A DNA stretch of 32,000 nucleotides from Gemmata obscuriglobus (lineage in GTDB: Bacteria > Planctomycetota > Planctomycetia > Gemmatales > Gemmataceae), in assembly GCF_008065095.1 (NCBI RefSeq), contig NZ_CP042911.1, positions 4,380,001 to 4,412,000 of the forward strand, written 5' to 3'. Numbering within the stretch: position 1 is the stretch's first letter; the number at the start of each line of letters is the position of its first letter. Below, piece by piece: positions 4,125 through 27,507 of this stretch. A program made the position numbers and the translations under genes. Under the pieces are notes generated by a model, which did not search any database, was not told where the DNA came from, and saw only the letters and a list, made by a program, of their open reading frames with translations.

Positions 4125-4478
4125 TCGCTCACCACCGCGGTTCGGGGGCGCACACCGAGCGTCGCGGTTCCGCGGAAGCCCGCCCACCACCGCGGCCGAG
4201 CGGAGCAGCACCGACCCCGGGCGCCGTGTCGCCCCACTTCGGAGGCCACCCACCACCGCCACACACAGCGACGAGCCGCGCCGACCACCCACGGGCACTA
4301 CGCGGAGCACCACCGACCCGCAATCACCGTGTCCCCATACCCGGCCACGCCCACCCGCACCTCGCGGCGACGAGCCGCGCCAGCACCGACCGGCACCACG
4401 CGGAGCCCGACGCGCGGGGTTCACCCACGCGGACCACACGCCACCGCCGCCGCACGCGCGCTCCTGCACGCGATGGTT
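4125..4478 (-). repeat. ORF-less cassette, GC-rich tandem-unit family (354 bp, 2 units)
   Basis: Bounded by attC sites and paralogous to 14 other cassettes. It has 98- and 102-nt units starting GCTCCGC (minus sense) with a CGCGGC-N5-GCCGCG hairpin. No conserved reading frame. Confidence 0.8.
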
Positions 4479-4569
4479 GCCGAACGTAAAGCTCACCTGC
4501 ACCGCCATCACACGATGAGCGGTGCGTCCCGAATCAGCCGGCGGTGTCAGGTGCAGCGCCGGGTTCGGC
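4479..4569 (-). repeat. attC: attC recombination site (91 bp)
   Basis: Same architecture. Confidence 0.85.
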
Positions 4570-4926
4570 TCGCTCACGTCCGCGGTTCCGGGGCACACGC
4601 CCCGCGCCGCGCATCTGCGGATGCCCGCGGCACCGATGCGGCCGAGCGGAGCACCACCGACCCCACGCGCCGTGTCGCGGCCCATCGGAGGCCGGCCACC
4701 ACCGCACCTCGCGGCGATGAGCCGCGCCGACCACCGGCGGGCACCACGCGGAGCACCCCCGACCCGAACCGCCGTGTCCCCACCCGCATCCCGGCCACGC
4801 CCAACCGCACCTCGCGGCGACGAGCCGCGCCCGCGCCCACCGGCACTCTGCGGAGCCCGACGCGCGGGGTTCACCCACGCGGACCACACGCACACCGCCG
4901 CACGGGCGCTCCAGCACGCGAGGGTG
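4570..4926 (-). repeat. ORF-less cassette, GC-rich tandem-unit family (357 bp, 2 units)
   Basis: Same family, with two 102-nt units. Confidence 0.8.
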
Positions 4927-5017
4927 GCCGAACGTAAAGCTCACCTGCACCGCCATCACACGATGAGCGGTGCGTCACAACTCAGCGGGCGGTGTCAGGT
5001 GCAGCGCCGGGTTCGGC
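4927..5017 (-). repeat. attC: attC recombination site (91 bp)
   Basis: Same architecture. Confidence 0.85.
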
Positions 5018-5458
5018 CTCTTGGGCCGCCACTCTGCCGGACGCGAGTAGTTGCCGGAGAGCATGGCAACCGCTCATGGTCGCCTCGCGAAGCTCGACGG
5101 CGAACCCATCGAGTGTGGTCGCCGACCGTACCGGCAGCCCGAGTTGATCGGGGAGATACGATTCGGCATCCCATACAGCACCACGAACGACTTGGCTGGC
5201 TGCGCCCGTCTGGATCTTCCACTGATCTTCAGACCAGTCCACCGTTAGCCGGAGATTGTAGCGGCGGCAGACGGCAGTATCGACCTCGACCCCGATCTCT
5301 AAATACCGCCAGGCGTGCATACTGATGCGGATATACGGCTCATGTTGGTCGGCGACGAGGCCACCATCGGCGAGGTCGTTCGCCAACTGCAGGAGCGTGT
5401 GTTGGGCCTGCGTTAACGCACCCAAGAACGCGACGACGTTGCGGCTGCCCTCGTCCAC
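4982..5458 (-). CDS. hypothetical cassette protein
   Basis: 158 aa, GTG 5458 after AGAGG. The last 11 codons (AEPGAAPDTAR) and the stop lie inside attC 4927-5017. Confidence 0.65.
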   Translation of the reverse strand: MDEGSRNVVAFLGALTQAQHTLLQLANDLADGGLVADQHEPYIRISMHAWRYLEIGVEVDTAVCRRYNLRLTVDWSEDQWKIQTGAASQVVRGAVWDAESYLPDQLGLPVRSATTLDGFAVELREATMSGCHALRQLLASGRVAAQEAEPGAAPDTAR

Positions 5459-5475
5459 CGCTTACGCCTCTGGTT

Positions 5476-5566
5476 GCCGAACGAACAGCTCACCTGCACC
5501 GCCATCATACAGTCAGCGATGCGTCCCGGAACAGATGGCGGTGTCAGGTGCAGCGCCGGGTTCGGC
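5476..5566 (-). repeat. attC: attC recombination site (91 bp)
   Basis: Same architecture. Confidence 0.85.
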
Positions 5567-5595
5567 GTGCCTTTGCGACCCACCCCGCCACCGCG

Positions 5596-5979
5596 TCACT
5601 TGTCGGACTTCTTCCCCCGCGACTCCGGCGGGCAGCCGTAGAAGCGGAGCTGAACTGGCGCATCATTCTTTTGGGGATCGGTCGTCACTTCGACGCGCGG
5701 ATACCTCTGATCGGACACCCACCCGATGACCTCAGCCCGTGTAGCCGCTTTACCATTGATGGTGAGCCGGACGCTCTTCAGGTCAGGCACGGTGACGGTC
5801 CTGCCGTCCTTCTCTCCCTCTTGGGGTTCAGCGCGGAGGAGAAATCCGTCTGCACCGGCGTGCTTCCCGCTGGGGACAGTGACGGACTGAACCTCGTAGA
5901 TGACAGCCTTCAAGTCGCTGGCCATGCCCGGCGAGGCGGACAGCGAGAAAACAACGAATGCCAACAGGGGCCGAGGCAT
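5596..5979 (-). CDS. small secreted protein (signal peptide)
   Basis: Track ORF is 5596..6024. I prefer the ATG at 5979 because of GGGAGG 10 nt upstream and the resulting MPRPLLAFVVFSLSASPGMA signal-like N-terminus. Confidence 0.65.
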   Translation of the reverse strand: MPRPLLAFVVFSLSASPGMASDLKAVIYEVQSVTVPSGKHAGADGFLLRAEPQEGEKDGRTVTVPDLKSVRLTINGKAATRAEVIGWVSDQRYPRVEVTTDPQKNDAPVQLRFYGCPPESRGKKSDK

Positions 5980-6040
5980 GGGGATCAACCCTCCCACAAG
6001 GGCTATGCGAAATGGACCATTCACGGCCTCGGCTTCTGCC

Positions 6041-6131
6041 GCCGAACAATAAGCTCACCTGCACCGCCATCACCGGATGAGCGATGCGTCCCGAATCCGC
6101 GGGCGGTGTCAGGTGCAGCGCCGGGTTCGGC
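6041..6131 (-). repeat. attC: attC recombination site (91 bp)
   Basis: Same architecture. Confidence 0.85.
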
Positions 6132-6140
6132 GTGCCTTTG

Positions 6141-9257: not shown

Positions 9258-9263
9258 GTGCCT

Positions 9264-10447: not shown

Positions 10448-10537
10448 GCCGAACATAAAGCTCACCGGCCGCGGTGTGAGCGACACGGTCTAAAAACAGC
10501 GCAGTATACAGCGGTCCGGTGCAGCGCCGGGTTCGGC
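10448..10537 (-). repeat. attC: attC recombination site, variant-stem class (90 bp)
   Basis: The L arms are CACCGGCCGC and GCGG(T)CCGGTG instead of CACCTGCACCGCC and GGCGGTG(T)CAGGTG, a compensatory change. The cores are retained. Confidence 0.8.
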
Positions 10538-10800
10538 CTCGGGGCACCTCCGCGGATCGCGTCCGCGCGCCACGACTGCGGTTCTGCGGTTCTGCGGAGC
10601 GCCGCGCATCCGCTGTGCCCGCGCCACCGGGGCACATCCGCAGAGCCCGAGGCCGCGACACGCGCGGACTCGTGCGGCCACCACATTCTCTCCGATGGGC
10701 CGCGGCGATGCAAGCCACCTCGTGCGACACAACCGCCTACCGTGCTGGGGACCACACGCCCACCACACCGGAGCGTGTGTCGCGTGAAGCTCGCGGCGCG
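10538..10800 (-). repeat. ORF-less cassette, subfamily b (263 bp)
   Basis: Shares its ends with the main family. The middle segment is shared only with 20562-20796 (GCCCGAGGCCGCGACA.GCGCGG ... CACCTCGTGCGACACAACCG). Confidence 0.7.
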
Positions 10801-10891
10801 GCCGAACATAAAGCTCACCTGCACCGCCATCACACGATGAGCGATGCGTCCCAGATCAGATGGCGGTGTCAAGCGCCGCGCCGGGTTCGGC
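10801..10891 (-). repeat. attC: attC recombination site, degenerate right arm (91 bp)
   Basis: The right arm reads GGCGGTGTCAAGCGCCGCGCCGGGTTCGGC, so the CAGGTGCAGC block is mutated. Confidence 0.7.
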
Positions 10892-11148
10892 TCGATGCCC
10901 TCGGCGGTTCCGGGCCATACGCTCAGCACCGCGCATCCGCTGTGCCCGCGGGACCGGTGCGGCCGAGCGGAGCGCCACCGACCCGACGCGCCGTGCCGCC
11001 GCACACCGGAGGCCAGACCCAACCGCACCTCGCGGCGATGAGCCGCGCCCGCCCCGACGGGCACCACGCGCAGCACCACACGACCGTCGGACGCGGTGCG
11101 GACCATGCGCCCACCGCCGCCGCACGCGCGCTCATGCAGCCTTGTGTG
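10892..11148 (-). repeat. ORF-less cassette, tandem-unit family (257 bp, 1 unit)
   Basis: Same family. Confidence 0.75.
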
Positions 11149-11260
11149 GCCGAACTTACAGCTCACCGGCCCGGCCACCACACCAATCACGACAACGACA
11201 CGCCGGCGAGCAGCACGAAACCAATCACGTGGCTGGGTCAGGTGCAGCGCCAGGTTCGGC
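11149..11260 (-). repeat. attC: attC recombination site, long class (112 bp)
   Basis: GCCGAAC..AGCTCACCGGCCCGGCC...GGCTGGGTCAGGTGCAGCGCCAGGTTCGGC. Related to 12828-12939. Confidence 0.75.
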
Positions 11261-12399: not shown

Positions 12400-12490
12400 G
12401 CCGAACGAATAGCTCACCTGCACCGCCATCACCGGATGAGCGGCGAGTCTCGAATCAGCGGGCGGTGTCAGGTGCAGCGCCGGGTTCGGC
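12400..12490 (-). repeat. attC: attC recombination site (91 bp)
   Basis: Same architecture. Confidence 0.85.
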
Positions 12491-12827
12491 TCGCTCACGT
12501 CCGCGCCGCGCATCCGCGCGAGCCCACCCACCGGTGCGTGCGAGCGGAGCCACCACCGCCCCTGCGCGCCGTGCCGCGGCACACCGGTGGCCGCCCACCA
12601 CCGCCACCCGCGGCGATGAGCCGCGCCCACCACCGGCGGGCACCACGCGGAGCACCACCGACCCGCACCACCGTGTCGCCGCACATCACGGACCATGCCC
12701 AACCGCACCTCGCGGCGGCGAGCCGCGCCAGACCCGATCGGCACCACGCGGAGCACGACGCGCGGGCGTCACCTTCGCGGACCACACCGTCAGCGCCGCC
12801 GCACGCGCGCTCGCGCGGCTCGGGGTG
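12491..12827 (-). repeat. ORF-less cassette, tandem-unit family (337 bp)
   Basis: Same family. Confidence 0.8.
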
Positions 12828-12939
12828 GCCGAACGAACAGCTCACCGGCCCGGCCGCGACACCAGTGTGCGGCAGAGACGCGCAGGGAGCCACGGGAAAC
12901 CGACTACGTGGCCGGGTCCGGTGCAGCGCCTGGTTCGGC
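12828..12939 (-). repeat. attC: attC recombination site, long class (112 bp)
   Basis: Related to 11149-11260. Confidence 0.75.
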
Positions 12940-13919: not shown

Positions 13920-15176
13920 CAGTAGTTTCAAGTTGGCGGCTTGGTTTTGTTGGCCGATCGTGCAGTAGTAATGGACTTATTTTCGCCATCTGTAGGTGCC
14001 AGCCCATCGGCCAACAGTATCAGGCATACCGCCGCCAGTGTCCACCCGAGGCCGCGGGCTGAGCGGGACCACAACCAGGCGTTACGCAGGATCAGCCCGA
14101 CGGCCACCCACAGGAGTCGCACGACCCCATCGGTGGTCGAGGTCCGGGGCCGAACCTGCCCCAACTGGCGGTAGCTGCTCTCGATCCCGAATCGGGTCCG
14201 GTACAGGTCCCGAATCGCCACCGGGCTCCCGCTCACCCGCCACACCGCGTACAGTAACTTCTTGCTCCGCCGGCCCCCGGTCCGCCGGTACCGGTAGCTC
14301 TTGTGAGCGATCACCACGTGCACCCGCACCGAGGTGCCCCGATCCGCGTGGGTGTACGCATATCGACCCGCGCCCCGCCGCCGCACGGCCCGCAACCCGA
14401 CCCCCTTCACCCCGGGCCGGGGCTTGCGGCCCCGGACCACGGCCGGGATCACGAACGGCACACCCCGCGCCTGGAGCAACCGCATCACCGCGATCGAGAA
14501 GAACGCCTTGTCCAGCAGCGCGACCCGGACCGTAACCCGTGCCGCCGTCACCTGATCCAACAGCCGGGTGAGCACCGCGGTCATCGGCTCCTTCTCGCCC
14601 ACGGCCGTCAACCCGAGCGTGTACCGGTCCGGTCCCCCGACGAGGCACGCGGTGGCGTACGTGTGGAACGTGTGGGTGCCGCCGGCCCCCTTGGACCGGG
14701 TGGTGTCCCGGTTCGGCGTCCCGAAGTACCCGATCCGGTGGTAGTCGATCGCGACCCGAGCCGCCCGCTTCCGCTTGCCGAGCGGGGCGTGGAGGGCCGG
14801 CCGCAACCGCCGCTCGAGGGTGCGGCGCCGCTTGGGCAGCGTGAGGTACAAGCAATCCCAGATGGCCTGCCCGGACGGGGCGTCGGCGATCGCGGCACAG
14901 GCCGCGGCCACCGAGCGGGCGAACGCCGCGGCGAACAGCACCACCCGCCACACCACCTCGGGTGTACAGGTGCGGCGACGCTTGGGCAGTTGGACCGCAC
15001 GGCCGAGCCAGTCGGTCAGGACCGGACGGAGGTGCCGGGTGGCGTGGGCCGGGGTGGCTCGGATAGACTGACGTTTGGGTCGCATGGGGGCTCCGACAGT
15101 GGAGGCGTGGTAACCACCATTGACCGGTAAACCCATGCGGCCCGCTACTCATAAATCGCCCAACTTGAAACTACTG
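13920..15176 (-). mobile_element. IS element, IS4/ISH3-like (1257 bp)
   Basis: Perfect terminal inverted repeats CAGTAGTTTCAAGTTGG / CCAACTTGAAACTACTG, flanking direct repeat GGTTC (or GTT if the repeats are 18 bp), and a single DDE transposase ORF. Confidence 0.85.
13928..15085 (-). CDS. DDE transposase (IS4 superfamily, DDE_Tnp_1-like)
   Basis: Track ORF is 13928..15136. I prefer ATG 15085 because of GGAG upstream. Motifs: VAIDYH, LLDKAFFS, and YRTRFGIESSYRQLGQ (Y-R-E signature). Confidence 0.8.
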   Translation of the reverse strand: MRPKRQSIRATPAHATRHLRPVLTDWLGRAVQLPKRRRTCTPEVVWRVVLFAAAFARSVAAACAAIADAPSGQAIWDCLYLTLPKRRRTLERRLRPALHAPLGKRKRAARVAIDYHRIGYFGTPNRDTTRSKGAGGTHTFHTYATACLVGGPDRYTLGLTAVGEKEPMTAVLTRLLDQVTAARVTVRVALLDKAFFSIAVMRLLQARGVPFVIPAVVRGRKPRPGVKGVGLRAVRRRGAGRYAYTHADRGTSVRVHVVIAHKSYRYRRTGGRRSKKLLYAVWRVSGSPVAIRDLYRTRFGIESSYRQLGQVRPRTSTTDGVVRLLWVAVGLILRNAWLWSRSARGLGWTLAAVCLILLADGLAPTDGENKSITTARSANKTKPPT

Positions 15177-15184
15177 GGTTCGGC

Positions 15185-15521
15185 TTCTGCGCTGGCAGTT
15201 GCGTTTCCGCGGAGCCCGCGCCCGCGTCGCGGTTCCGCGGGGCCACCACCGACCCGCGCCACCGTGTCGCGGCACACCGTAGGCCACCCACCACCGCACC
15301 TCGCGGCGACGAGCCGCGCCGCCCACCCACGGGCACCACGCGGAGCACCACCGACCCGCATCACCATGCCGCCGCACACCGGAGGCCGCGCCCAACCGCA
15401 CCTCGCGGCGGTGAGCCGCGCCCATCACCCCCGGGCACCACGCAGAGCCCGACCAGCGGGGCTCACCCACGCGGACCACACGTTCTGCGCCGCCCGCACG
15501 CGCGATCGAGCGACTCGGGTG
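15185..15521 (-). repeat. ORF-less cassette, tandem-unit family (337 bp)
   Basis: Same family. Confidence 0.8.
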
Positions 15522-15612
15522 GCCGAACGAACAGCTCACCTGCACCGCCATTATCGGATGAGCGGTGCGTCCCAGATCCGCGGGCGGTGTCAGGTGCAGC
15601 GCCGGGTTCGGC
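15522..15612 (-). repeat. attC: attC recombination site (91 bp)
   Basis: Same architecture. Confidence 0.85.
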
Positions 15613-16277: not shown

Positions 16278-16283
16278 GGGCCT

Positions 16284-17201: not shown

Positions 17202-17292
17202 GCCGAACGAACAGCTCACCTGCACCGCCCCCTCCCAGGGAGCGGTGCCATCCAGACTACATGGCGGTGTCAGGTGCAGCGCCGGGTTCGGC
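17202..17292 (-). repeat. attC: attC recombination site (91 bp)
   Basis: Same architecture. Confidence 0.85.
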
Positions 17293-17627
17293 TTGCTCAC
17301 ATCCGCGCCGCGCATCCGCGGAAGCCCGCCTACCGGTGCGGCCGAGCGGAGCGGCACCGATCCGACGCGCCGTGCCGCGGCACGCCGGAGGCCACCCACC
17401 ACCGCCACCCGCGGCGATGAGCCGCGCCCGACACCCACGGGCACCACGCGGAGCCACCACCGACCCGCACCGCCGTGTCCCCACGCGCTCCCGGCCGCGC
17501 CCAACCGCACCTCGCGGCGGCGAGCCGCGCCCGCCACCCACGGGCACCACGCGGAGCACTACACCCGGGGTTCACCAACGCGGACCACACGCCCACCGCC
17601 GCACGCGCGATCGTGCCCGCGATGGTT
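17293..17627 (-). repeat. ORF-less cassette, tandem-unit family (335 bp)
   Basis: Same family. Confidence 0.8.
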
Positions 17628-17717
17628 GCCGAACGAACAGCTCACCTGCACCGCCAGGATGAAGTGAGCATCACAACTGCGGCCGATGGCGGTGTCAGGT
17701 GCAGCGCCGGGTTCGGC
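17628..17717 (-). repeat. attC: attC recombination site (90 bp)
   Basis: Canonical arms. Loop AGGATGAAGTGAGCATCACAACTGCGGCCGAT resembles that of 24512-24601. Confidence 0.85.
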
Positions 17718-18176
17718 TCACTGACCTCCGCGGTTCCGGGCGACACGCGCCGCACCGCGGCTCCGCGGAGCCCGTGCCACCGGTGCGGCCGGGCGGAGCA
17801 CCCCCAACCCGATGCGCCGTGTCGCGACACATCGGAGGCCACCCACCACCGCCACCCGCGGCGATGAGCCGCGCCCGCCACCTACGGGCGCCACGCGGAG
17901 CACCACCGACACGAACCGCCGTGTCCCCACCCGCGCCCGGCCACGCCCAACCACACCTCGCGGCGGCGAGCCGCGCCAGACCCGATCGGCACCACGCGGA
18001 GCGCCACCGAACCGACACGCCGTGTCCGCACCCGCCACCGGCCGCGCCCACCGCACCTCGCGGCGACGAGCCGCGCCACACACCCACGGGCACCACGCGG
18101 AGCCCGACACGCACTGTTCACCTTTGCGGACCATACGTTCAGCGCCGCCGCACGCGCGATCGAGCGCCTTGGGGTT
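17718..18176 (-). repeat. ORF-less cassette, tandem-unit family (459 bp, 3 units)
   Basis: Same family with one extra ~100-nt unit. Confidence 0.8.
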
Positions 18177-18268
18177 GCCGAACGAACAGCTCACCTGCAC
18201 CGCGAGATCCCGGGCCGCGGTGCGTCGCAATACCGCATGGCGGTGTCAGGTGCAGCGCCGGGTTCGGC
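18177..18268 (-). repeat. attC: attC recombination site (92 bp)
   Basis: Same architecture. Confidence 0.85.
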
Positions 18269-18332
18269 GCGCGGACCTCCGCGGTTCCGGGCACACGCCG
18301 AGCGCCGCGGCTCCGCGGATGCCCGGGCCACC
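18269..18332 (-). repeat. ORF-less cassette, tandem-unit family, part 1 (split by an IS)
   Basis: Continues at 19639. Removing the IS and one target-duplication copy restores the family consensus (compare 17718-17800). Confidence 0.75.
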
Positions 18333-19638
18333 AGGGCAAACGCACTCAATCCCCTAGGAATCGCTGGATTCTAGCTAATTTTGAGGCGTGTGATCGAGCG
18401 GCCATCGCTCGCCTCCTGCGCATGTGCGGCCCCGCCTCCATATGATTCTGGCGCGCCCTCACCGCCTCGGAGTCTGCCGATGAGTGCCGCCCCCGGCCCA
18501 CGCCCGTTAATCGAGTACCTGTCCCAGATCCCGGATCCGCGGGTCGAGTTGAAGTGCTTCCACGACTTGATTGATGTACTCATGATCGTGACCTGTGGGA
18601 CGATCGTCGGGGCCGATGACTTCGTGTCGATCGCCGAGTTCGCGCGGGCCAAGGAGTCCTGGTTCCGGGACCGGCTGGGGCTGACGCTGCGCAACGGGAT
18701 TCCGTCCCACGACACCCTCAACCGGGTGTTCGCGCTGGTCCGCCCGGAGGCGTTCGGGCGGTGCTTCCGGGCGTGGGTCGCGGACGCCGCCGAGGGCCTC
18801 CGGGTGCCCCACATCCCGATCGACGGGAAGACCATGCGGGGGTCCAAGCGGGTCACCGGCACGGGGGCTCGCAAGGCCACACACATCGTCAGCGCATGGG
18901 CTCAGCAGTTGGGCCTCACGTTGGCCCAGGTGAAGACCGACGAGAAGTCCAACGAGATCACCGCGATCCCGGAACTGCTGGAGCGGCTGGACCTCGCGGG
19001 GGCCCTGGTGAGCATCGACGCGATGGGCACCCAGAAGGACATCGCCCAGCAGATCGTGGCCGCCAAGGGGGACTACCTGCTGGCGGTCAAGGACAACCAG
19101 CCGCGGCTGCTCGAGGACATCCAGCGGTTGGCCGAGGGGGCCCTAGAGGCGAGCTACGCGGGCCGCTCGACCGACCTCAACGAAGGAACGGGCCACGGGC
19201 GCGAGGAGATGCGGTTCTGTTTCGTGATCGACGACCTGGAGTCGATCCGGGACCGGAATGTGTGGCCCCGGTTGCGGTCCGTCGTGGTGCTCGTCAGCAG
19301 CCGCACGGTCGCCGGTAGGACGAGCGACGAGGTGCGGTATTACATCAGCTCGCGGAAGGCATCGGCCAAGCGGTTCCAAACGTGGATCCGGGCTCATTGG
19401 TGCATCGAGAATTCATGCCATTGGGTGCTGGATGTCGCGTTCCGAGAAGACGACCACCGACTCCGTGAAGGGCACGGCCCGCAGAATATGGCCCTCGTGC
19501 GCAAGATCGCCTTGGCGATGTTGAAGAAGGCAAACGCCAAATGTGGGATCAAGAACCGGCGACTCAAGGCCGGATGGGATAATACCTACCTCGAACAGGT
19601 ACTACTGAAAAATCCCGAGGATTGAGTGCGTTTGCCCT
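18333..19638 (+). mobile_element. ISAs1-family insertion sequence (~1.3 kb)
   Basis: Terminal inverted repeats AGGGCAAACGCACTCAATCC / GGATTGAGTGCGTTTGCCCT. A 10-12 bp target duplication (G)CCCGGGCCAC(C) lies at 18321-18332 and 19639-19650. Confidence 0.85.
18480..19625 (+). CDS. ISAs1-family transposase
   Basis: Track ORF is 18381..19625. I prefer ATG 18480. The N-terminal LSQIPDPRVELKCFHDLIDVLMIVTCGTIVGADDFVSIAEFARAK and the later IDAMGTQKDIA and HWCIENSCHWVLDVAFREDD are hallmarks of this family. Confidence 0.85.
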   Translation: MSAAPGPRPLIEYLSQIPDPRVELKCFHDLIDVLMIVTCGTIVGADDFVSIAEFARAKESWFRDRLGLTLRNGIPSHDTLNRVFALVRPEAFGRCFRAWVADAAEGLRVPHIPIDGKTMRGSKRVTGTGARKATHIVSAWAQQLGLTLAQVKTDEKSNEITAIPELLERLDLAGALVSIDAMGTQKDIAQQIVAAKGDYLLAVKDNQPRLLEDIQRLAEGALEASYAGRSTDLNEGTGHGREEMRFCFVIDDLESIRDRNVWPRLRSVVVLVSSRTVAGRTSDEVRYYISSRKASAKRFQTWIRAHWCIENSCHWVLDVAFREDDHRLREGHGPQNMALVRKIALAMLKKANAKCGIKNRRLKAGWDNTYLEQVLLKNPED

Positions 19639-19921
19639 GCCCGGGCCACCGGTGCGGCCGAGCGGAGCACCACCGAACCGACGCCCCGTGTCCCGGCATA
19701 TCGAGGGCCACGCCCACCGACAACTCGCGGCGACGAGCCGCGCCGACCACCGGCGGGCACCACGCGGAGCACCACCGACCCGAACCACCGTGTCCCCACC
19801 CGCGCCTCGCGGCGGCGAGCCGCGCCCGCTCCGACCGGCACCACGCGGAGCCCGACACGCGCGGTTCACTCACGCGGACCACGCGCCCACCACCGCACGC
19901 GCGCTCCTGCACGCGATGGTG
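19639..19921 (-). repeat. ORF-less cassette, tandem-unit family, part 2
   Basis: See 18269-18332. Confidence 0.75.
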
Positions 19922-20017
19922 GCCGAACAGGAAGCTCAGTAGCGGCGGGGCCCGGCTGAGCTCCACGTCACGGAGACCCTACACACCCCCGCCATCTGCT
20001 GCAGCGCGGGGTTCGGC
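19922..20017 (-). repeat. attC: attC recombination site, divergent arms (96 bp)
   Basis: GCCGAAC and GTTCGGC cores are retained. The arms are AGCTCAGTAGCGGCGGGG and CCCCGCCATCTGCTGCAGC. Confidence 0.7.
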
Positions 20018-20471: not shown

Positions 20472-20561
20472 GCCGAACGAACAGCTCACCTGCACCGCCC
20501 CTCCAAGGGAGGGATGCGTTCCGAACTCCGTGGCGGTGTCAGGTGCAGCGCCGGGTTCGGC
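20472..20561 (-). repeat. attC: attC recombination site (90 bp)
   Basis: Same architecture. Confidence 0.85.
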
Positions 20562-20796
20562 GCGCGCACCACCGCGGTTCGCTTCTGCGCCGTTGCGCAC
20601 GCGGCTGCGCGGAGCCCGCGCCGGCGCCGCGCATCGGCCGTGCCCGAGGCCGCGACATGCGCGGTGCCGTGCGGCCCGCCGCTGCATCTCAACCGGGGCC
20701 GCGGCGACACCCGGCACCTCGTGCGACACAACCGTCTTACGCACCGCGGGCCACGCGCCCACCACCGCCGCACGCGCGTTCATGCACGCGATGGTA
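20562..20796 (-). repeat. ORF-less cassette, subfamily b (235 bp)
   Basis: Related to 10538-10800. Confidence 0.7.
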
Positions 20797-20887
20797 GCCG
20801 AACGAACAGCTCACCTGCACCGCCATCACCGGATGAGCGGTGCGTCACAAGTCAGCGGGCGGTGTCAGGTGCAGCGCCGGGTTCGGC
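20797..20887 (-). repeat. attC: attC recombination site (91 bp)
   Basis: Same architecture. Confidence 0.85.
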
Positions 20888-21221
20888 TCGCTCACATCCG
20901 CGCAGCGCATCCGCGGATGCCCGCCCACCGGTGCGACCGGGCGGAGCACCACCGAACCACGGCGCCGTGTCCCGACACATCGGGGGCCACCCACCACCGC
21001 CACACGCGGCGATGAGCCGCGCCCGCGACCGATCGGTCTCAGCGGAGCACCACCGACCCGCACCACCGTGTCCCCATCCGCACCCGGCCACAACCACCGC
21101 AAGCTCGCGGCGACGAGCCGCGCCAGCCCCAACCGGCACCACGCGAAGCCCGACGCGCGCGGTTCACCACCGCGGACCACACGCACACCGCCGCACGCGC
21201 GCCCTCATGCACGCGATGGTT
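20888..21221 (-). repeat. ORF-less cassette, tandem-unit family (334 bp)
   Basis: Same family. Confidence 0.8.
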
Positions 21222-21289
21222 GCCGAACAAATAGCTCACCTGCGGCGGGCGGCTTTGAGCCCGCCGTCAGGTGCAGCGACGGGTTCGGC
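21222..21289 (-). repeat. attC: attC recombination site, short class (68 bp)
   Basis: GCCGAACAAATAGCTCACCTGCGGCGGGCGGCTTTGAGCCCGCCGTCAGGTGCAGCGACGGGTTCGGC. The arms are retained and the loop is shortened. Confidence 0.8.
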
Positions 21290-22175: not shown

Positions 22176-22192
22176 ATCTGCGCAGCCCCCAG

Positions 22193-22624: not shown

Positions 22625-22641
22625 CTCGCACTGCCTCTGTT

Positions 22642-22732
22642 GCCGAACATAAAGCTCACCTGCACCGCCCTCACCGGATGAGCGGTGCGTCCCGAATCAG
22701 CCGGCGGTGTCAGGTGCAGCGCCGGGTTCGGC
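22642..22732 (-). repeat. attC: attC recombination site (91 bp), identical to 23997-24087
   Basis: Part of an exact cassette duplication. Confidence 0.85.
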
Positions 22733-23146
22733 GTTTGGGGATAACCCGGCGGCCAGGAACGCGGGGAACGAAGGGGCCATCTCGTGGATGCCGCCAAAGT
22801 CGTGATCCTCGACCAGCACTCGCCCGGACGAGAGCTCGATGCCGAACGGGTTGCCGCCGCCATCCCAACCGATGATGAACACTCCTCGCATGTGCCAGAA
22901 CTCGTTGTCCGCTCGGAACTGGCGGTGCGAATCGGCCAACTCGGGCAGCCCGTCGATCCACTCGCCGTCACCGCCCACGCGCCCGCCGCACACCGTCAGG
23001 TACTCGCGGAACGCTGGCGGGATCGTCCCGAACTCGACCTCGAACGCCCGCAGGTCGCCCTCGGCGGCCGGCGGGTGGCGTTCCTCCTCAGGGCAGGCGT
23101 GCCACGCCGCGACAAGGAGTTGCCGCAGTCGCTCGTTCACATGCAA
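22697..23146 (-). CDS. SMI1/KNR4 (SUKH-1) family immunity-like protein, type B copy 1
   Basis: LRAFEVEFGTIPPAFREYL ... IIGWDGGGNPFGIEL ... APSFPAFL is the SMI1_KNR4 pattern. The track gives a TTG start at 23146, but GTG 23140 has better AGAGGG spacing. The stop lies inside the attC. Confidence 0.8.
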   Translation of the reverse strand: MHVNERLRQLLVAAWHACPEEERHPPAAEGDLRAFEVEFGTIPPAFREYLTVCGGRVGGDGEWIDGLPELADSHRQFRADNEFWHMRGVFIIGWDGGGNPFGIELSSGRVLVEDHDFGGIHEMAPSFPAFLAAGLSPNAEPGAAPDTAG

Positions 23147-23156
23147 GCCCTCTGTG

Positions 23157-23247
23157 GCCGAACAGAAAGCTCACCTGCACCGCCATCATGGGATGAGCGA
23201 TGCGTCCCGAATCAGCGGGCGGTGTCAGGTGCAGCGCCGGGTTCGGC
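23157..23247 (-). repeat. attC: attC recombination site (91 bp)
   Basis: Same architecture. Confidence 0.85.
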
Positions 23248-23390
23248 TCTTCGTCGGCCGTAGCGGTTCCGCGGAGCCCGCTCCACCGACACACATCCGT
23301 AGAGCCACCACCGACGCGCGTCCGCGGAGCCGCGACCGCGCATCTGCTGCACCCGCCTGGCCGCCGAAGTCCGCCGAGGCAAGCCTCTGT
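23248..23390 (-). repeat. 3' untranslated part of a cassette containing a fragment of the ORF-less family
   Basis: 23248-~23320 (GCGGTTCCGCGGAGCCCGC ... CATCCGTAGAGCCACCACCGAC) aligns with the attC-adjacent module of 24602-24937 and 15185-15521. Confidence 0.6.
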
Positions 23391-23654
23391 TCAAGTCTCC
23401 GACGTGCCCGGAAGCCGGGCGCCGCAGAACGAGCAACGGGTGAGGCTCGGTCCAACCAGGATCGACACCCGGCGACACGACAGGCACACGGCCCGTCGCA
23501 CCCCGACTGCTACCGCGATAGCCCCCACCACAGCGCCAAGACCGGTGAACATCAGCGACAGAGGCCACATCTGCGAGAGCAGTAATCCGCCGAAGAACAG
23601 GATAGCGGCAACTGTCAATCCGTGCCGGTATGTTCTTCGTCGCCATTCTGCCAC
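23391..23654 (-). CDS. small membrane protein with C-terminal CxxC-x13-CxxC zinc-ribbon
   Basis: Track ORF 23391..23861 is a read-through. AGAGGG plus 6 nt plus GTG 23654. 87 aa with two hydrophobic helices followed by CLSCRRVSILVGPSLTRCSFCG. Confidence 0.55.
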   Translation of the reverse strand: MAEWRRRTYRHGLTVAAILFFGGLLLSQMWPLSLMFTGLGAVVGAIAVAVGVRRAVCLSCRRVSILVGPSLTRCSFCGARLPGTSET

Positions 23655-23670
23655 CGTTCGCCCTCTGCTT

Positions 23671-23762
23671 GCCGAACCAGGAGCTGAGCTGCAAGCCGCC
23701 CCTCTCAGGACGGTCTCCCCTTGCTCCCGCGACGGCTGGTCAGCTCCAGCGGGGGGTTCGGC
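23671..23762 (-). repeat. attC: attC-like site, divergent (92 bp), nested in a larger 153-bp palindrome ending at 23823
   Basis: GCCGAAC at 23671, with GTTCGGC both at 23756-23762 and at 23817-23823. 23797-23823 is a near-perfect complement of 23671-23697. Confidence 0.55.
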
Positions 23763-23823
23763 CGACGGCCGCCTCCTTCCGCCAGAGGATGAGTGAGCCT
23801 TGCAGCTCAGCTCCGGGTTCGGC

Positions 23824-23996
23824 CGCCGCCGGATGAGCTCAGCCCACCGGGGACATCGCACGGCGGGAGATCACCATGCGACCTCAGGCCGCTCGGATCG
23901 GCGGGCCCTCGCCGGTCGCCTTCACCAGGGGGGAGGTGGCGACAACCTTACGACCGCCCGCCGATCCGCGGCGAATGCAACCACCTCACGGCGGCG
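23824..23996 (-). repeat. short unique ORF-less cassette with a long hairpin
   Basis: No ORF longer than about 13 codons. 12-bp perfect inverted repeat GGATCGGCGGGC (23895-23906) / GCCCGCCGATCC (23956-23967), with an inner GTCGCC..GGCGAC pairing. Confidence 0.5.
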
Positions 23997-24087
23997 GCCG
24001 AACATAAAGCTCACCTGCACCGCCCTCACCGGATGAGCGGTGCGTCCCGAATCAGCCGGCGGTGTCAGGTGCAGCGCCGGGTTCGGC
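23997..24087 (-). repeat. attC: attC recombination site (91 bp), identical to 22642-22732
   Basis: Part of an exact cassette duplication. Confidence 0.85.
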
Positions 24088-24501
24088 GTTTGGGGATAAC
24101 CCGGCGGCCAGGAACGCGGGGAACGAAGGGGCCATCTCGTGGATGCCGCCAAAGTCGTGATCCTCGACCAGCACTCGCCCGGACGAGAGCTCGATGCCGA
24201 ACGGGTTGCCGCCGCCATCCCAACCGATGATGAACACTCCTCGCATGTGCCAGAACTCGTTGTCCGCTCGGAACTGGCGGTGCGAATCGGCCAACTCGGG
24301 CAGCCCGTCGATCCACTCGCCGTCACCGCCCACGCGCCCGCCGCACACCGTCAGGTACTCGCGGAACGCTGGCGGGATCGTCCCGAACTCGACCTCGAAC
24401 GCCCGCAGGTCGCCCTCGGCGGCCGGCGGGTGGCGTTCCTCCTCAGGGCAGGCGTGCCACGCCGCGACAAGGAGTTGCCGCAGTCGCTCGTTCACATGCA
24501 A
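24052..24501 (-). CDS. SMI1/KNR4 (SUKH-1) family immunity-like protein, type B copy 2 (identical to 22697..23146)
   Basis: Identical protein in the ORF track, and the nucleotide sequence is identical by eye. Confidence 0.8.
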   Translation of the reverse strand: MHVNERLRQLLVAAWHACPEEERHPPAAEGDLRAFEVEFGTIPPAFREYLTVCGGRVGGDGEWIDGLPELADSHRQFRADNEFWHMRGVFIIGWDGGGNPFGIELSSGRVLVEDHDFGGIHEMAPSFPAFLAAGLSPNAEPGAAPDTAG

Positions 24502-24511
24502 GCCCTCTGTG

Positions 24512-24601
24512 GCCGAACAACAAGCTCACCTGCACCGCCAGGATCGAGTGAGCATCACAACGGTGGCCGATGGCGGTGTCAGGTGCAGCGCCGGGTTCGG
24601 C
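24512..24601 (-). repeat. attC: attC recombination site (90 bp)
   Basis: Same architecture. Confidence 0.85.
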
Positions 24602-24937
24602 TTCTGCGCGGGCCGTTGCGGTTCCGCGGAGCCCGCGCTCGTACCGCGCATCCGCGGAGCCACCACCGACCCGAACCGCCGTGTCCCGGCCCACCGAGGG
24701 CCACCCACCACCGCACCTCGCGGCGATGAGCCGCGCCCACCACCGACCCGTATCGGCGGAGCACCACCGACCCGCAATCACCGTGTCCCCACCCGCACCC
24801 GGCCACGACCAACCGCACCTCGCGGCGGTGAGCCGCGCCAGACCCGACCGGCACCACGCGGAGCACGACGCGTGGGGTTCACTCACGCGGACCACACGCA
24901 CACCGCCGCCGCACGCGCGATCCAGCGCCCTCGGGGT
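24602..24937 (-). repeat. ORF-less cassette, tandem-unit family (336 bp)
   Basis: Same family. Confidence 0.8.
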
Positions 24938-25028
24938 GCCGAACATACAGCTCACCTGCACCGCCATCACCGGATGAGCGGTGCGTCACAAGTCAGATGG
25001 CGGTGTCAGGTGCAGCGCCGGGTTCGGC
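24938..25028 (-). repeat. attC: attC recombination site (91 bp)
   Basis: Same architecture. Confidence 0.85.
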
Positions 25029-25030
25029 TC

Positions 25031-25444
25031 CTATCGAGCTGCTGGGAAGTCCGAAAACGAAGCCGTCACGAACTCCAGCGCGCCGTCCGCGGTTGAGCGG
25101 AAGCCCAGGCTCACCGTACCCGTCGGCGTGTCAATTACGCCCAGGTGCGACACCAGTTCCTCGGAAAGCAGGTGATAACCACTGGCCCCATTCCGGACGA
25201 CCGACACACGGTACCCACCGACCAGAGCCGGCTGATGTTGGAGGAGCCAATCGACCGTTCCCGCGTGCCCGTGGAGCAGCGGCTCGGCGGCCAGCGCGGT
25301 GCGATCCGAGGCGACAACCGCGGCGGCCACGCGCTCTGTTGCCGCGATGGCCTCAGGTGGGGCGGCTGACCGCTGACGAACCGCTACGACGGCCACGACC
25401 GAGAGGGTGGTGGCAACCGCCAGGACCGCGACGCGGGATCGCAT
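25031..25444 (-). CDS. secreted protein (signal peptide)
   Basis: 137 aa, ATG 25444, MRSRVAVLAVATTLSVVAVVAV... The stop is 2 nt from the attC. Confidence 0.7.
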   Translation of the reverse strand: MRSRVAVLAVATTLSVVAVVAVRQRSAAPPEAIAATERVAAAVVASDRTALAAEPLLHGHAGTVDWLLQHQPALVGGYRVSVVRNGASGYHLLSEELVSHLGVIDTPTGTVSLGFRSTADGALEFVTASFSDFPAAR

Positions 25445-25461
25445 TCTTGCGCCCTCTGGGT

Positions 25462-25551
25462 GCCGAACGAACAGCTCACCTGCACCGCCCCTCCCAAGGA
25501 GCGATGCGTCCCAAGTCAGCGGGCGGTGTCAGGTGCAGCGCCGGGTTCGGC
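25462..25551 (-). repeat. attC: attC recombination site (90 bp)
   Basis: Same architecture. Confidence 0.85.
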
Positions 25552-25883
25552 TTCTGCGCCCCGCGCCGCGCATCCGCGGAGCCCGCCCACCGACGCGGCC
25601 GAGCGGAGCCACCACCGACCCGACCCGCCGTGTCCCGGCACACCGGAGGCCACGCCCACCGCCACACGCGGCGACGAGCCGCGCCAACCACACACGGGCG
25701 GCACGCGGAGCACCACCGAACCGAAACGCCGTGTCCGCACCCGCCACCGGCCGCGCCCACCGCACCTCGCGGCGACGAGCCGCGCCCGGCACCCACGGGC
25801 ACCACGCAGAGCGCCACACCACCGCCTGATGCACTGCGGACCACACGCACACCGCCGCACGCGCACTCGCGCGGCTCTGGGTG
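25552..25883 (-). repeat. ORF-less cassette, tandem-unit family (332 bp)
   Basis: Same family. Confidence 0.8.
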
Positions 25884-25974
25884 GCCGAACATAAAGCTCA
25901 CCTGCACCGCCATCATACCGTCAGCGGTGCGTCGCAGTATAGCGGGCGGTGTCAGGTGCAGCGCCGGGTTCGGC
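25884..25974 (-). repeat. attC: attC recombination site (91 bp)
   Basis: Same architecture. Confidence 0.85.
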
Positions 25975-25982
25975 TGTCTTTG

Positions 25983-26621
25983 CTACCCAATCTGCTCCCG
26001 CACCGCCTGCCACTGCTCCCAAAGGCGTTCTGGGTGCAGGCGCGGGATCGGCATCTGTGCATCCAGCGAGGCGTAGAACCGCTCGGCCTGAGACAACGGC
26101 ATGGAGGTACACGCCGCCGTATCCCGGACCTCCAGCACCTCGGCCTCGGTAAGCGGCGCCCCCTTCTGCCTCTCCCGAGCGCGTAGGAGCATAGCCAGCG
26201 GATTGAGGAACACCGGAACGGTCAACTCGGGTAGGCCGGCCCGCCGGCGGACGCTGGTAAAGTTGGCATACACGTTATCGACCAGCACCCGCCAGTCGGA
26301 GACCCCGTAGTACGTGCGGCCGACCCCGATCAACTCGTGGTGGCCGGGGTGGTGGGCTTTGCTGCGGGCGGCGGCGTTCGCCTCCTCGACCAACCCGCCG
26401 CTCCACTTGGCGGCCGCCCCGACCCGCTCAATCATGCACCGCAACACGGCCGCATCGACATCCGCCACGGCGAGTCCCATCGCCCGCCCGGTATCCACCC
26501 CGAACCCGTAAAGGAGCATACCGAGGACAGAAACATTGAGGTCGTCACGTACCCAACGCCAGTCAGCGAGGACGGCGTCGGCCAGTTCGCCGACACGATC
26601 AGTCAAAGTGCCGCGCGCCAT
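25983..26621 (-). CDS. hypothetical cassette protein (212 aa)
   Basis: Track ORF 25983..26981 is a read-through. ATG 26621 follows GGGTGAGG. Confidence 0.65.
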   Translation of the reverse strand: MARGTLTDRVGELADAVLADWRWVRDDLNVSVLGMLLYGFGVDTGRAMGLAVADVDAAVLRCMIERVGAAAKWSGGLVEEANAAARSKAHHPGHHELIGVGRTYYGVSDWRVLVDNVYANFTSVRRRAGLPELTVPVFLNPLAMLLRARERQKGAPLTEAEVLEVRDTAACTSMPLSQAERFYASLDAQMPIPRLHPERLWEQWQAVREQIG

Positions 26622-26636
26622 CCTCACCCTCTTCTT

Positions 26637-26726
26637 GCCGAACAATAAGCTCACCGGCCGCGCACGCCGCGACACGGTCACCGAAGTACGCACTTTACAG
26701 CGGTCCGGTGCAGCGCCCGGTTCGGC
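26637..26726 (-). repeat. attC: attC recombination site, variant-stem class (90 bp)
   Basis: Same class as 10448-10537 and 16648-16737. Confidence 0.8.
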
Positions 26727-27060
26727 TTCTGCGCTGGCATTTGCGGTTCCGCGGAGCCCGCGCCCGCGTCGCACATCCGCGGAGCCACCACCGATCCGCA
26801 CCACCGTGCCGCGGCACACCGGGGGCCACCCAACACCGCACCTCGCGGCGGTGAGCCGCGCCAACCCCGACCGGCACCACGCGGAGCACCACCGACTCGC
26901 ACCACCGTGTCCCAAGGCACTGCCAGCCACGCCCACCCGCACCTCGCGGCGGTGAGCCGCGCCCGCACCCACGGGCACCATGCGAAGCCCGACACCCGGG
27001 GTTCACTTACGCGGACCACGCGCCCACCACCACCGCACGCGCGATCCAGCAGCGTCGGGT
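26727..27060 (-). repeat. ORF-less cassette, tandem-unit family (334 bp)
   Basis: Same family. Confidence 0.8.
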
Positions 27061-27151
27061 GCCGAACATAAAGCTCACCTGCACCGCCATCACACGATGA
27101 GCGGTGCGTCACAAGTCAGCGGGCGGTGTCAGGTGCAGCGCCGGGTTCGGC
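27061..27151 (-). repeat. attC: attC recombination site (91 bp)
   Basis: Same architecture. Confidence 0.85.
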
Positions 27152-27507
27152 TCGATGCCCTCGGCGGTTCGGGGTCGCACGCCGAGCGCCGCGCATCCGC
27201 AGAGCCCGCGGCACCGACGCGGCTGGGCGGAGCACCACCGACCCGACGCGCCGTGTCCCGGCACACCGGAGGCCGCCCACCACCGCACCTCGCGGCGATG
27301 AGCCGCGCCGACCACCCACGGGCCACACGCGGAGCACCACCGACCCGCACCGCCGTGTCCCGACACATCGGAGGCCACGCCCAACCGCAAGCTCGCGGCG
27401 ATGAGTCGCGCCAGACCCGACCGGCACCACGCGAAGCCCGACGCGCGCGGTTCACCACCGCGGACCACACGCACACCGCCGCACGCGCGATCCAGAACGC
27501 GATGGTT
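27152..27507 (-). repeat. ORF-less cassette, tandem-unit family (356 bp); first cassette of the array
   Basis: Same family. It abuts the lone R' core at 27508-27514. Confidence 0.8.

What the first reader, a model, noticed from the sequence alone, without database searches (positions are those of the whole stretch)
4125..27507. One third of the cassettes are a paralogous ORF-less family built from ~100-nt tandem units: a candidate novel non-coding cassette
Fifteen cassettes are mutually homologous and have no credible ORF. They are 4125-4478, 4570-4926, 10538-10800, 10892-11148, 12491-12827, 15185-15521, 17293-17627, 17718-18176, 18269-18332 plus 19639-19921, 20562-20796, 20888-21221, 24602-24937, 25552-25883, 26727-27060 and 27152-27507. 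A fragment of the family lies at 23248-~23320.

Architecture in cassette (minus) sense:
- A conserved 5' module: AACCATCGCGTGCAGGAGCGCGCGTGCGGCGG...GTGGTCCGCGTGGGTGAACCCCGCGCGTCGG.
- One to three tandem units of 98-102 nt. Each starts GCTCCGC and carries GGCGCGGCTC(R)(Y)CGCCGCGAGGTGCGG, which contains a CGCGGC-N5-GCCGCG hairpin.
- A 3' module with CCGCGG and CATCCGCGGATG palindromes next to the attC.

Lengths fall into classes of 235-263, 332-337, 354-357 and 459 bp, which is unit copy-number variation.

The evidence against coding is as follows. Homologous units sit in different frames (RGSSPRGAVG versus RLIAARCGGG in the track ORFs). Copies differ by 4- and 5-nt indels, for example CCGGGTATGGGGACAC versus CCGGGATGCGGGTGGGGACAC. 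The only SD-preceded GTG frame runs about 53 codons in the 4478 copy but stops after 10 codons in the 4926 copy.

Composition is strongly asymmetric: the plus strand is C+A-rich and the cassette-sense strand is G+T-rich. The copies often occur as adjacent pairs. They also occupy the two positions nearest the attI-like end, which under the integron model are the most recent insertions.

Possible roles, all speculative, are a structured ncRNA, a protein-titrating repeat RNA, a structural or insulator element in the array, or a selfish cassette. The titration idea rests on regularly spaced GGA in ACGCGGAGCAC and TCGGAGGCC on the plus strand.
Basis: partly seen in the sequence, partly recalled or inferred. 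Interest (0 to 1): 0.9.

Follow-up and report, generated by a model that had tools for sequence, protein, structure and literature searches.

The report
Non-coding repeat cassette family in Gemmata integrons
About a third of the mobile cassettes in this Gemmata obscuriglobus integron array belong to one old family that encodes no protein, is built from ~100-base repeats around an invariant hairpin, and is kept by selection for an unknown purpose.

Summary
The window is a minus-strand integron cassette array from Gemmata obscuriglobus. Thirteen cassettes share a 5' module, one to three ~101-nt tandem units and a 3' module. Two further cassettes share only the end modules.

Coding is rejected. 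The family shows no codon-phase GC bias, whereas 29 of the 30 other cassettes do. Its variation has no period of three. The synonymous fraction is 0.28-0.33 in all six frames, against 0.60-0.65 in the true frame of protein-cassette controls. There is no Pfam or Rfam hit.

The family is always attC-bounded and always in cassette orientation. It makes up 64 of 162 cassettes in the Gemmata loci I sampled (G. obscuriglobus, G. algarum, one Gemmata MAG). It was absent from the metagenome and viral scans.

Copies are old (median identity 0.80, the same between species as within). Even so, 84 of 319 columns never change, where 3.6 are expected. This points to purifying selection on short sequence blocks, including the hairpin CGCGGC-TCRYC-GCCGCG.

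I found no covariation, sigma-70 promoter, terminator, G-quadruplex excess or attC-derived origin. No integrase lies in the window; a Mu-type portal gene flanks the array. Gene-less cassettes are a known class, and this is a new variant of it. The mechanism remains inferred.

The parts
27067..27513 (-). Family cassette with 2 units and the long 3' module, including its attC. It is the first cassette at the array boundary.
26643..27066 (-). Family cassette with 2 units and the short 3' module haplotype.
25468..25889 (-). Family cassette with 2 units.
24518..24943 (-). Family cassette with 2 units.
20803..21227 (-). Family cassette with 2 units.
20478..20802 (-). Divergent relative. It shares the family's 5' and 3' modules, has a different middle and has no ~100-nt unit.
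18183..19927 (-). Family cassette with 2 units, one of them carrying a 20-nt deletion. An IS at 18333-19638 interrupts it in the 3' module.
17634..18182 (-). Family cassette with 3 units.
17208..17633 (-). Family cassette with 2 units.
15150..15527 (-). Family cassette with 2 units. Its attC is cut after GCCGAACCC by the neighbouring transposase region (13928-15136).
12406..12833 (-). Family cassette with 2 units.
10807..11154 (-). Family cassette with 1 unit.
10454..10806 (-). Divergent relative of the same subfamily as 20478-20802. It shares only the end modules.
4485..4932 (-). Family cassette with 2 units and the long 3' module. An identical copy lies in another array (L108) with different neighbours.
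4040..4484 (-). Family cassette with 2 units and the long 3' module.
23248..23330 (-). A piece of the family's 3' module (about 80% identity over 72 nt) at the end of a small protein-coding cassette.
4710..4728 (-). Example of the invariant unit core GGCGCGGCTCATCGCCGCG: stem CGCGGC/GCCGCG with loop TC-R-Y-C. There are 26 such cores in the window.

Best explanation
**Shown.** This is a family of gene-less integron cassettes specific to Gemmata. Each copy is an ordinary attC-bounded cassette. Its roughly 330-nt body encodes no protein. The body consists of a 5' module, one to three ~101-nt tandem units and a 3' module. The family is old and diversified, and it is shared by at least three Gemmata lineages. 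Purifying selection holds it on short nucleotide blocks that are the same in both unit types. The most prominent block is a 6-bp GC hairpin with a TC-R-Y-C loop.

**Inferred.** The body is a cis-acting nucleic-acid module rather than a gene. Its repeated hairpin-plus-flank blocks are most likely recognition sites for a protein. They would be read on the G-rich sense transcript of the array or on the unwound DNA strand. By carrying such sites, the cassettes would give the array a property that keeps them from being lost, for example control of transcript processivity or stability, or of array architecture or stability. The cassette moves and multiplies like any other cassette, through its attC.
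For: **Non-coding**
- GC by codon phase spans 0.02-0.15 in all 12 family cassettes tested (p>0.04). It spans 0.21-0.42 (p<1e-4) in 29 of the 30 other cassettes.
- Variation among 20 copies has no period of three (p=0.38).
- The synonymous fraction is 0.28-0.33 in all six frames. It is 0.60-0.65 in the true frame of two protein-cassette control pairs; a third control set, with few differences, was uninformative.
- An ATG at position 19-23 is present in only about a third of copies (24 of 66). The ORFs that follow run 14-166 codons in different frames.
- No Pfam hit.

**Cassette status**
- Every copy in the window and in loci L019, L029, L030, L047 and L108-L111 is attC-bounded and in array orientation.
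- An identical copy sits in two different contexts.

**Selection**
- 84 of 319 columns show zero changes on the tree of 50 copies, where a Poisson model expects 3.6. The index of dispersion is 5.8.
- 46 of 102 unit columns are at least 90% conserved with the same base in both unit types. Only 1 is conserved with a different base.
- 134 of 140 unit hairpins have a perfect stem.
- The G excess sits in the conserved columns.

**Age and retention**
- Median pairwise identity is 0.80. Between-species identity (0.797) equals within-species identity (0.80).
- 63% of family copies have their nearest relative at 80-95% identity. Protein cassettes have either a twin at >=99% (33%) or no homologue (62%).

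**Precedent.** Gene-less cassettes with regulatory roles are documented in PMC11014356, PMC6557892 and PMC8876359.
Against: - No experiment or expression data were available, so the reading strand and any binding partner are guesses.
- No covariation supports a folded RNA.
- MFE is no better than shuffles.
- No sigma-70-like promoter or intrinsic terminator was found.
- The rate heterogeneity could be inflated by gene conversion between copies or units, or by alignment error in the variable stretches.
- The 40% abundance figure comes from loci chosen because they contain the family.
- A selfish explanation cannot be excluded, because selection could act at the level of the cassette rather than the host.
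Confidence: 0.45

Rival explanations
1. Selfish or neutral cassette family. A short, cost-free, non-expressed cassette that multiplies by ordinary integrase-mediated excision and re-insertion or by homologous recombination. It lingers because nothing selects against it, and it has no host function.
For: - It is the most abundant cassette family in the sample, 64 of 162 cassettes.
- Family cassettes are shorter than the others, median 443 against 560 nt.
- Copies are mildly clustered (p=0.012).
- Copies occur in at least 5 genomic regions.
- Recent twins exist: 15% of copies have one at >=99% identity.
Against: - Mobilisation needs only attC. Yet 84 of 319 body columns are invariant across copies that otherwise differ by 20%, and the same blocks are kept in both unit types.
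- Family attC sites are barely different from the others: same length, 0.29 against 0.65 mismatches in the 3' arm, and a slightly weaker fold.
- Adjacent copies are no more alike than random pairs.
- Fewer family copies have recent twins than protein cassettes do (15% against 33%).
Confidence: 0.25
2. Promoter or transcription-control cassette, like the gene-less cassettes of Vibrio and Treponema. The body would start, or keep going, transcription of downstream cassettes far from Pc.
For: - Most gene-less cassettes tested in Vibrio had sense-strand promoter activity (PMC11014356), and so did Treponema cassettes (PMC6557892).
- Copies are spread along a >27-kb array with more than 40 cassettes and precede protein cassettes.
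- Orientation is fixed.
Against: - No sigma-70-like -35/-10 pair was found anywhere in 17000-28000.
- The body is 77% G+C with 7% A, whereas the Vibrio promoters were linked to AT-richness (PMC11014356).
- The only ECF-like motif, GTGAAC, lies in variable columns.
- Runs of up to 8 consecutive copies are hard to explain by promoter supply.
Confidence: 0.15
3. Trans-acting structured small RNA or protein sponge, of the sRNA-Xcc1 or CsrB type, expressed from many copies.
For: - Tandem units each carry the same hairpin.
- Many one-sided G-C to G-U changes keep pairs on the sense strand only.
- An integron-borne sRNA exists in Xanthomonas (PMC8876359).
Against: - No Rfam hit, even at E<=1.
- The covariation term is about zero, and two-sided changes do not exceed the controls.
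- MFE is not better than shuffles.
- No own promoter or terminator was found.
- The mutual-information scan finds only linkage between two 3'-module haplotypes.
Confidence: 0.1
4. Decayed or unusual protein gene. This would be either a pseudogene family descended from a secreted small protein (some copies start SD-ATG MSARAAAVGVWSA...) or a real Arg/Gly-rich repeat protein.
For: - 24 of 66 copies have an ATG at position 19-23, some with a GAGG at Shine-Dalgarno distance, and a similar 13-codon start.
- The genome annotation calls hypothetical proteins over these copies.
Against: - All coding tests are negative, with working positive controls.
- Frames differ between copies after about 15 codons.
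- The annotated ORFs are antisense and run through attC sites.
- Neutral decay would not leave invariant blocks.
Confidence: 0.04

Closest known systems
Gene-less (ORF-less) integron cassettes with promoter activity (Vibrio superintegrons, Treponema; PMC11014356, PMC6557892)
   Same: An attC-bounded cassette with no gene, in a large chromosomal array, making up a sizeable share of it (6-49% in Vibrio). It is proposed to act on neighbouring cassettes.
   Different: - Those cassettes are AT-rich and heterogeneous, and some are decayed genes. This family is 77% G+C and strongly G-skewed, with no sigma-70 motif.
- It is one large diversified family (70 distinct copies) with internal ~101-nt tandem units.
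- It shows invariant sequence blocks shared across species.
sRNA-Xcc1, the integron-cassette small RNA of Xanthomonas (cited in PMC8876359)
   Same: A non-coding cassette cargo found in several copies and genomes.
   Different: - There was no hit to any Rfam model.
- No promoter or terminator is evident.
- No covariation-supported fold was found.
- The architecture is a tandem repeat.
REP/BIME-type repeated extragenic palindromes
   Same: A short GC-rich hairpin repeated more than a hundred times per genome, with a conserved stem and a tolerated loop.
   Different: In the roughly 140 kb I could see, the hairpin lies only inside attC-bounded cassettes. It has one orientation and is embedded in a conserved ~100-nt unit. 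I saw no dispersed intergenic copies.
Repeat RNAs that bind proteins (CsrB/RsmZ sponges, ToxI type III antitoxin repeats)
   Same: Tandem non-coding units that each carry the same short motif.
   Different: - There was no Rfam hit.
- GGA motifs are not in conserved loops.
- No adjacent toxin gene is present.
- Units are about 100 nt, not 36 nt.

Membership tests
Integron gene cassette | Bounded by attC sites with inverted core sites (R'' GCCGAAC ... R' GTTCGGC), with the recombination point at G|TT. | tested here: met
   Every copy in the window and in 8 other loci is bounded this way. Family attC sites match the array consensus in 52 of 56 cases.
Integron gene cassette | The same cassette is found in different array contexts, which is evidence of mobility. 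| tested here: met
   4485-4932 is identical to a cassette in L108 that has different neighbours. 15% of copies have a twin at >=99% identity.
Integron gene cassette | The array is attached to an intI integrase gene and an attI site. | tested here: not met
   There is no integrase in 27514-32000. The flanking gene is a Mu-type portal, PF06074 at 1e-29. Within this window the array behaves as a cluster of attC sites without an integrase.
Gene-less (ORF-less) cassette | No protein-coding signal in the cassette body. | tested here: met
   Codon-phase GC, period-3 of variation, synonymous fraction with positive controls, start-codon survey and Pfam were all negative.
Gene-less (ORF-less) cassette | Operational rule of PMC11014356: no ORF longer than 210 bp. 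| tested here: not met
   ORFs of 90-286 codons overlap the copies on both strands. They result from 77% G+C and scarce A and T, run through attC sites, and show no coding statistics. The rule does not transfer to this genome.
Promoter cassette | A promoter that drives neighbouring cassettes. | tested here: inconclusive
   No sigma-70 consensus match was found in 17000-28000, against 0.5 expected. Promoter activity and planctomycete-specific promoters cannot be tested with these tools.
Structured non-coding RNA | A conserved secondary structure supported by compensatory changes. | tested here: not met
   The covariation term is -0.23 kcal/mol. Four pairs have two-sided change against 4.7 in shuffles, with 422 of 500 shuffles at least as high. 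On 52 copies there are 6 such pairs against 7-14 in slid controls.
Any Rfam family (including sRNA-Xcc1, CsrB/Rsm, ToxI, group II intron) | A match to the family's covariance model. | tested here: not met
   There were 0 hits at gathering score over the whole window and 0 hits at E<=1 over 17200-18200.
REP-type extragenic palindromes | Dispersed intergenic copies, in both orientations, outside mobile cassettes. | tested here: not met
   All 26 cores in the window and all cores in the other Gemmata loci lie inside cassettes on the cassette strand. The complete genome could not be scanned.

The most novel reading that the evidence does not exclude
The family is a domesticated non-coding cassette. 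It would be a mobile, modular array of protein-binding hairpin units that Gemmata integrons carry in dozens of copies to control the array itself, for example transcript processivity or stability, integrase access, or chromosome architecture of the array. That would make it the first cassette cargo shown to be a conserved nucleic-acid element under purifying selection across species, rather than a gene, a promoter or a decayed gene.
Probability: 0.3. Interest if true: 0.75.

Novelty: new variant of a known kind. Interest (0 to 1): 0.6.

Why it matters
Integron cassettes are usually treated as single promoterless genes. Gene-less cassettes have only recently been given a role, as promoters in AT-rich Vibrio arrays.

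This case differs in four ways:
- One non-coding family fills about a third of a planctomycete array.
- It is as diverged between species as within a genome.
- It still keeps invariant blocks.
- It persists far longer than duplicated protein cassettes.

If this reflects function, cassettes can carry selectable nucleic-acid modules, and large arrays may depend on them.

There is also a practical point. The family produces a set of annotated 'hypothetical proteins' in G. obscuriglobus (GobsT_37270 and about 14 others). These are almost certainly antisense artefacts.

Tried and rejected
- **Protein coding, any frame or strand.** Rejected.
- **Units derived from attC sites.** Local alignment of the unit and attC consensus sequences scores 16, against 16.1 +/- 2.6 for shuffles (p=0.55).
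- **G-quadruplex element.** Canonical G4 motifs occur in only 14 of 61 copies. They are fewer than in shuffled copies, 0.23 against 0.80 per cassette.
- **Thermodynamically unusual fold.** z = +0.87 on the sense strand and -1.41 on the antisense strand.
- **Sigma-70 promoter or intrinsic terminator.** None found.
- **Rfam membership.** None.
- **Recent tandem duplication as the cause of adjacency.** Adjacent pairs are 0.81 identical, against 0.80 for all pairs.
- **Special, more recombinogenic attC sites.** The differences are marginal.
- **Covariation scan without a structure model.** Mutual information found only linkage between the two 3'-module haplotypes.
- **Anti-Shine-Dalgarno (CCTCC), ECF-promoter-like (GTGAAC), ops-like, Chi-like and KOPS-like motifs.** I looked at each by eye against the per-column change map. 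Each falls at least partly in variable columns, so I did not pursue them.
- **IS target preference.** The apparent second insertion in L111 was an unrecognised attC, not an IS.
- **Searches outside Gemmata.** The 50 non-Gemmata genome loci, all 44 metagenome loci and 0 viral loci matching the unit pattern contained no true member.
- **Literature.** I found no paper linking Gemmata obscuriglobus to integron cassettes of this kind.

Full report
**What the window is**

The window is a long integron cassette array read on the minus strand. I located 43 attC 3' ends of the type GGTGAGC-N4-6-GTTCGGC, which define 42 complete cassettes, plus one more cassette at the array boundary. Protein cassettes start TTCGGC..GAGG..ATG/GTG.

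An antisense ORF over two family copies (4077-4937, +) is 100% identical to the annotated hypothetical protein GobsT_37270 of Gemmata obscuriglobus, on a 9.03-Mb contig. That identifies the source genome.

**Check of the observation**

A BLAST search with 4570-4926 recovers all the listed intervals except 10538-10800, and it hits only 51 nt of 20562-20796. MAFFT alignment of the 15 cassettes shows the described layout: a 5' module, units that begin GCTCCGC and carry GGCGCGGCTC(R)(Y)CGCCGCGAGGTGCGG, and a 3' module with CCGCGG-type palindromes.

- There are 26 unit cores, all on the minus strand, spaced 99-103 nt apart. Tandem Repeats Finder gives periods of 101-103 with 79-83% matches.
- A gapped unit pattern matches 19 times, against 0 in shuffles.
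- The cassette split by an IS is confirmed. A DDE_Tnp_1 transposase lies at 18381-19625, and a 13-nt direct repeat flanks the insertion.

Some details need correcting.

- 10454-10806 and 20478-20802 are a separate subfamily. They share only the terminal modules with the other 13.
- The 332-337 and 354-357 length classes reflect two 3'-module variants, not unit number.
- The fragment at about 23248-23320 is a family 3' module attached to a small protein cassette.

**Not coding**

- GC content by codon phase differs by 0.21-0.42 (p<1e-4) in 29 of the 30 other cassettes. It differs by only 0.02-0.15 (p>0.04) in all 12 family cassettes tested.
- Sequence diversity among 20 copies has no period of three (p=0.38).
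- Among 52 copies, the fraction of single-difference codons that are synonymous is 0.28-0.33 in all six frames. In diverged pairs of protein cassettes from the same arrays, one frame reaches 0.60-0.65 and the others 0.10-0.28. The test therefore works, and the family fails it.
- An ATG at position 19-23 occurs in about a third of copies (24 of 66). The ORFs that follow run 14-166 codons, and their frames differ after about 15 codons.
- The long ORFs on both strands result from 77% G+C and scarce A and T. They have no Pfam match.

**Distribution**

One scan of 185,579 species genomes with the unit pattern found true members only in Gemmata algarum JC673 (ten contigs) and in a Gemmata sp. MAG. 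The other 50 loci were single chance matches in GC-rich genomes. The metagenome scan (44 loci) and the viral scan (0 loci) gave no member.

Spurious 'hypothetical proteins' over family copies lie in at least five regions of the G. obscuriglobus genome. I fetched four further contigs of that species. In them, 10 of 25, 19 of 29, 6 of 21 and 8 of 16 cassettes belong to the family, with runs of up to eight.

In every locus the copies are attC-bounded and in array orientation. Over all sampled loci the family is 64 of 162 cassettes. That figure is biased upward, because I chose the loci through the family.

**Evolutionary pattern**

- I collected 70 distinct copies. The 52 two-unit copies have a median pairwise identity of 0.80.
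- Identity between G. obscuriglobus and G. algarum copies (0.797) equals identity within each genome (0.80 and 0.79). Adjacent copies (0.81) are no more alike than random pairs. The diversity is therefore old or exchanged, and adjacency is not recent tandem duplication.
- Clustering is modest (p=0.012).
- Protein cassettes in the same loci have either a twin at >=99% identity (33%) or no homologue (62%). In the family, 63% of copies have their closest relative at 80-95%. Family copies are thus retained far longer than duplicates of protein cassettes.
- On a neighbour-joining tree of 50 copies, 84 of 319 columns have no change, where a Poisson model expects 3.6. Neighbouring columns changed nine or more times.
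- The two unit types share 46 columns that are at least 90% conserved with the same base. Only one column is conserved with a different base.
- The G excess lies in the conserved columns.

I read this as purifying selection on short nucleotide blocks that predates the unit duplication. Gene conversion could contribute, and I could not test it.

**Structure**

- Whole-cassette MFE is no better than shuffles on either strand.
- RNAalifold on 52 copies gives 6 pairs with two-sided change, against 7-14 when partners are slid.
- On a 27-copy alignment the covariation term is -0.23 kcal/mol. The count of pairs with two-sided change is 4, against 4.7 in shuffles.
- The only repeated two-sided change lies in a 4-bp hairpin of the 3' module. 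It separates two haplotypes, so it represents one event.
- The unit hairpin CGCGGC/GCCGCG is perfect in 134 of 140 units. Its loop is TC-R-Y-C. The two free positions vary only by transitions and independently of each other. I cannot explain that pattern.
- In last units a 12-bp alternative helix with G-U pairs is possible on the sense strand only. It has 90% canonical pairs against 36-42% when slid, but it has no compensatory support and does not hold in first units.

**Other readings tested**

- No sigma-70-like promoter or intrinsic terminator.
- No Rfam match, even at E<=1.
- Units are not derived from attC sites (p=0.55).
- G-quadruplex motifs are rarer than in shuffles.
- Family attC sites are essentially the same as the others.

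**Surroundings**

- The array ends at 27513. The next gene on the plus strand (28549 to beyond 32000) is a Mu-type portal, PF06074 at 1e-29.
- The 1236-codon minus-strand ORF is the antisense shadow of that portal gene.
- No integrase lies in the window, so I could not confirm that the end is an attI or that the first two cassettes are the newest.

**Interpretation**

Gene-less cassettes are a known class. They make up 6-49% of Vibrio arrays, and promoter activity has been shown in Vibrio and Treponema (PMC11014356, PMC6557892). An sRNA cassette is known in Xanthomonas (PMC8876359). This family belongs to that class by anatomy. It differs in composition, in being one large diversified family with an internal tandem-repeat design, and in showing cross-species purifying selection without a promoter motif or a covarying fold.

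- **Best reading (confidence 0.45).** A cis-acting nucleic-acid module whose conserved hairpin units are recognition sites read on the sense transcript or on single-stranded DNA. It would give the array a property that keeps the cassettes from being lost.
- **Main rival (0.25).** A selfish or neutral cassette.
- **Further rivals.** A promoter-type cassette (0.15) and a trans-acting RNA (0.10).
- **Coding (0.04).** Effectively excluded.

No paper in the held library links Gemmata to such cassettes. That does not prove the family has never been described.

Noticed in passing
window 27514-32000: A Mu-type portal gene (PF06074, 1e-29) runs on the plus strand from about 28549 to beyond the window end. 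The 1236-codon minus-strand ORF at 27928-31638 is its antisense shadow (GC by phase 0.97/0.55/0.73). No integrase gene flanks the array. Three GTTATTG(T/C)GCGA-like repeats lie at about 27520-27700, just outside the last GTTCGGC.
   Followed up: partly
window 18333-19638: An IS with a DDE_Tnp_1 plus DDE_Tnp_1_assoc transposase (18381-19625, +) is inserted in the 3' module of a family cassette. It is flanked by a 13-nt direct repeat, GGTGGCCCGGGCA.
   Followed up: partly
window 13838-15160: A second DDE transposase ORF (13928-15136, -) lies directly downstream of family copy 15185-15521. That copy's attC is cut after GCCGAACCC, so two cassettes appear fused.
   Followed up: no
window 23163-24002; L109 and L110: This 'cassette' is compound. 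It begins with a roughly 335-nt stretch that shows no codon-phase signal and contains atypical attC-like sites. That stretch is nearly identical in two other arrays, where it is followed by different downstream cassettes. It may be a second kind of gene-less cassette.
   Followed up: partly
window 22648-23162 and 24003-24517; 3579-4039, 9172-9632, 16193-16653: Protein cassettes are duplicated at 96-100% identity within the window and across other arrays of the genome. This contrasts with the 70-95% identity typical of the non-coding family.
   Followed up: yes
window 4077-4937 (+) and about 14 other G. obscuriglobus loci: Annotated hypothetical proteins (GobsT_37270, 43780, 43830, 11330 and others) are antisense ORFs that run across family cassettes and attC sites. 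They show no coding statistics and are probably annotation artefacts.
   Followed up: partly
window 11161-11250, 12840-12929, ~16660, ~26649, ~19930-20020: A minority of cassettes end in a second, divergent attC type, with a GGCCGGGCCGGTGAGC-like arm or a longer variable centre. They are mixed in with the dominant type.
   Followed up: no
all 140 unit hairpins (window and loci L019-L111): Loop positions 3 and 4 of TC-R-Y-C vary only by transitions. All four combinations occur at independent frequencies, and each position switched many times on the tree. The rest of the hairpin is invariant, and elsewhere in the family transversions dominate.
   Followed up: partly
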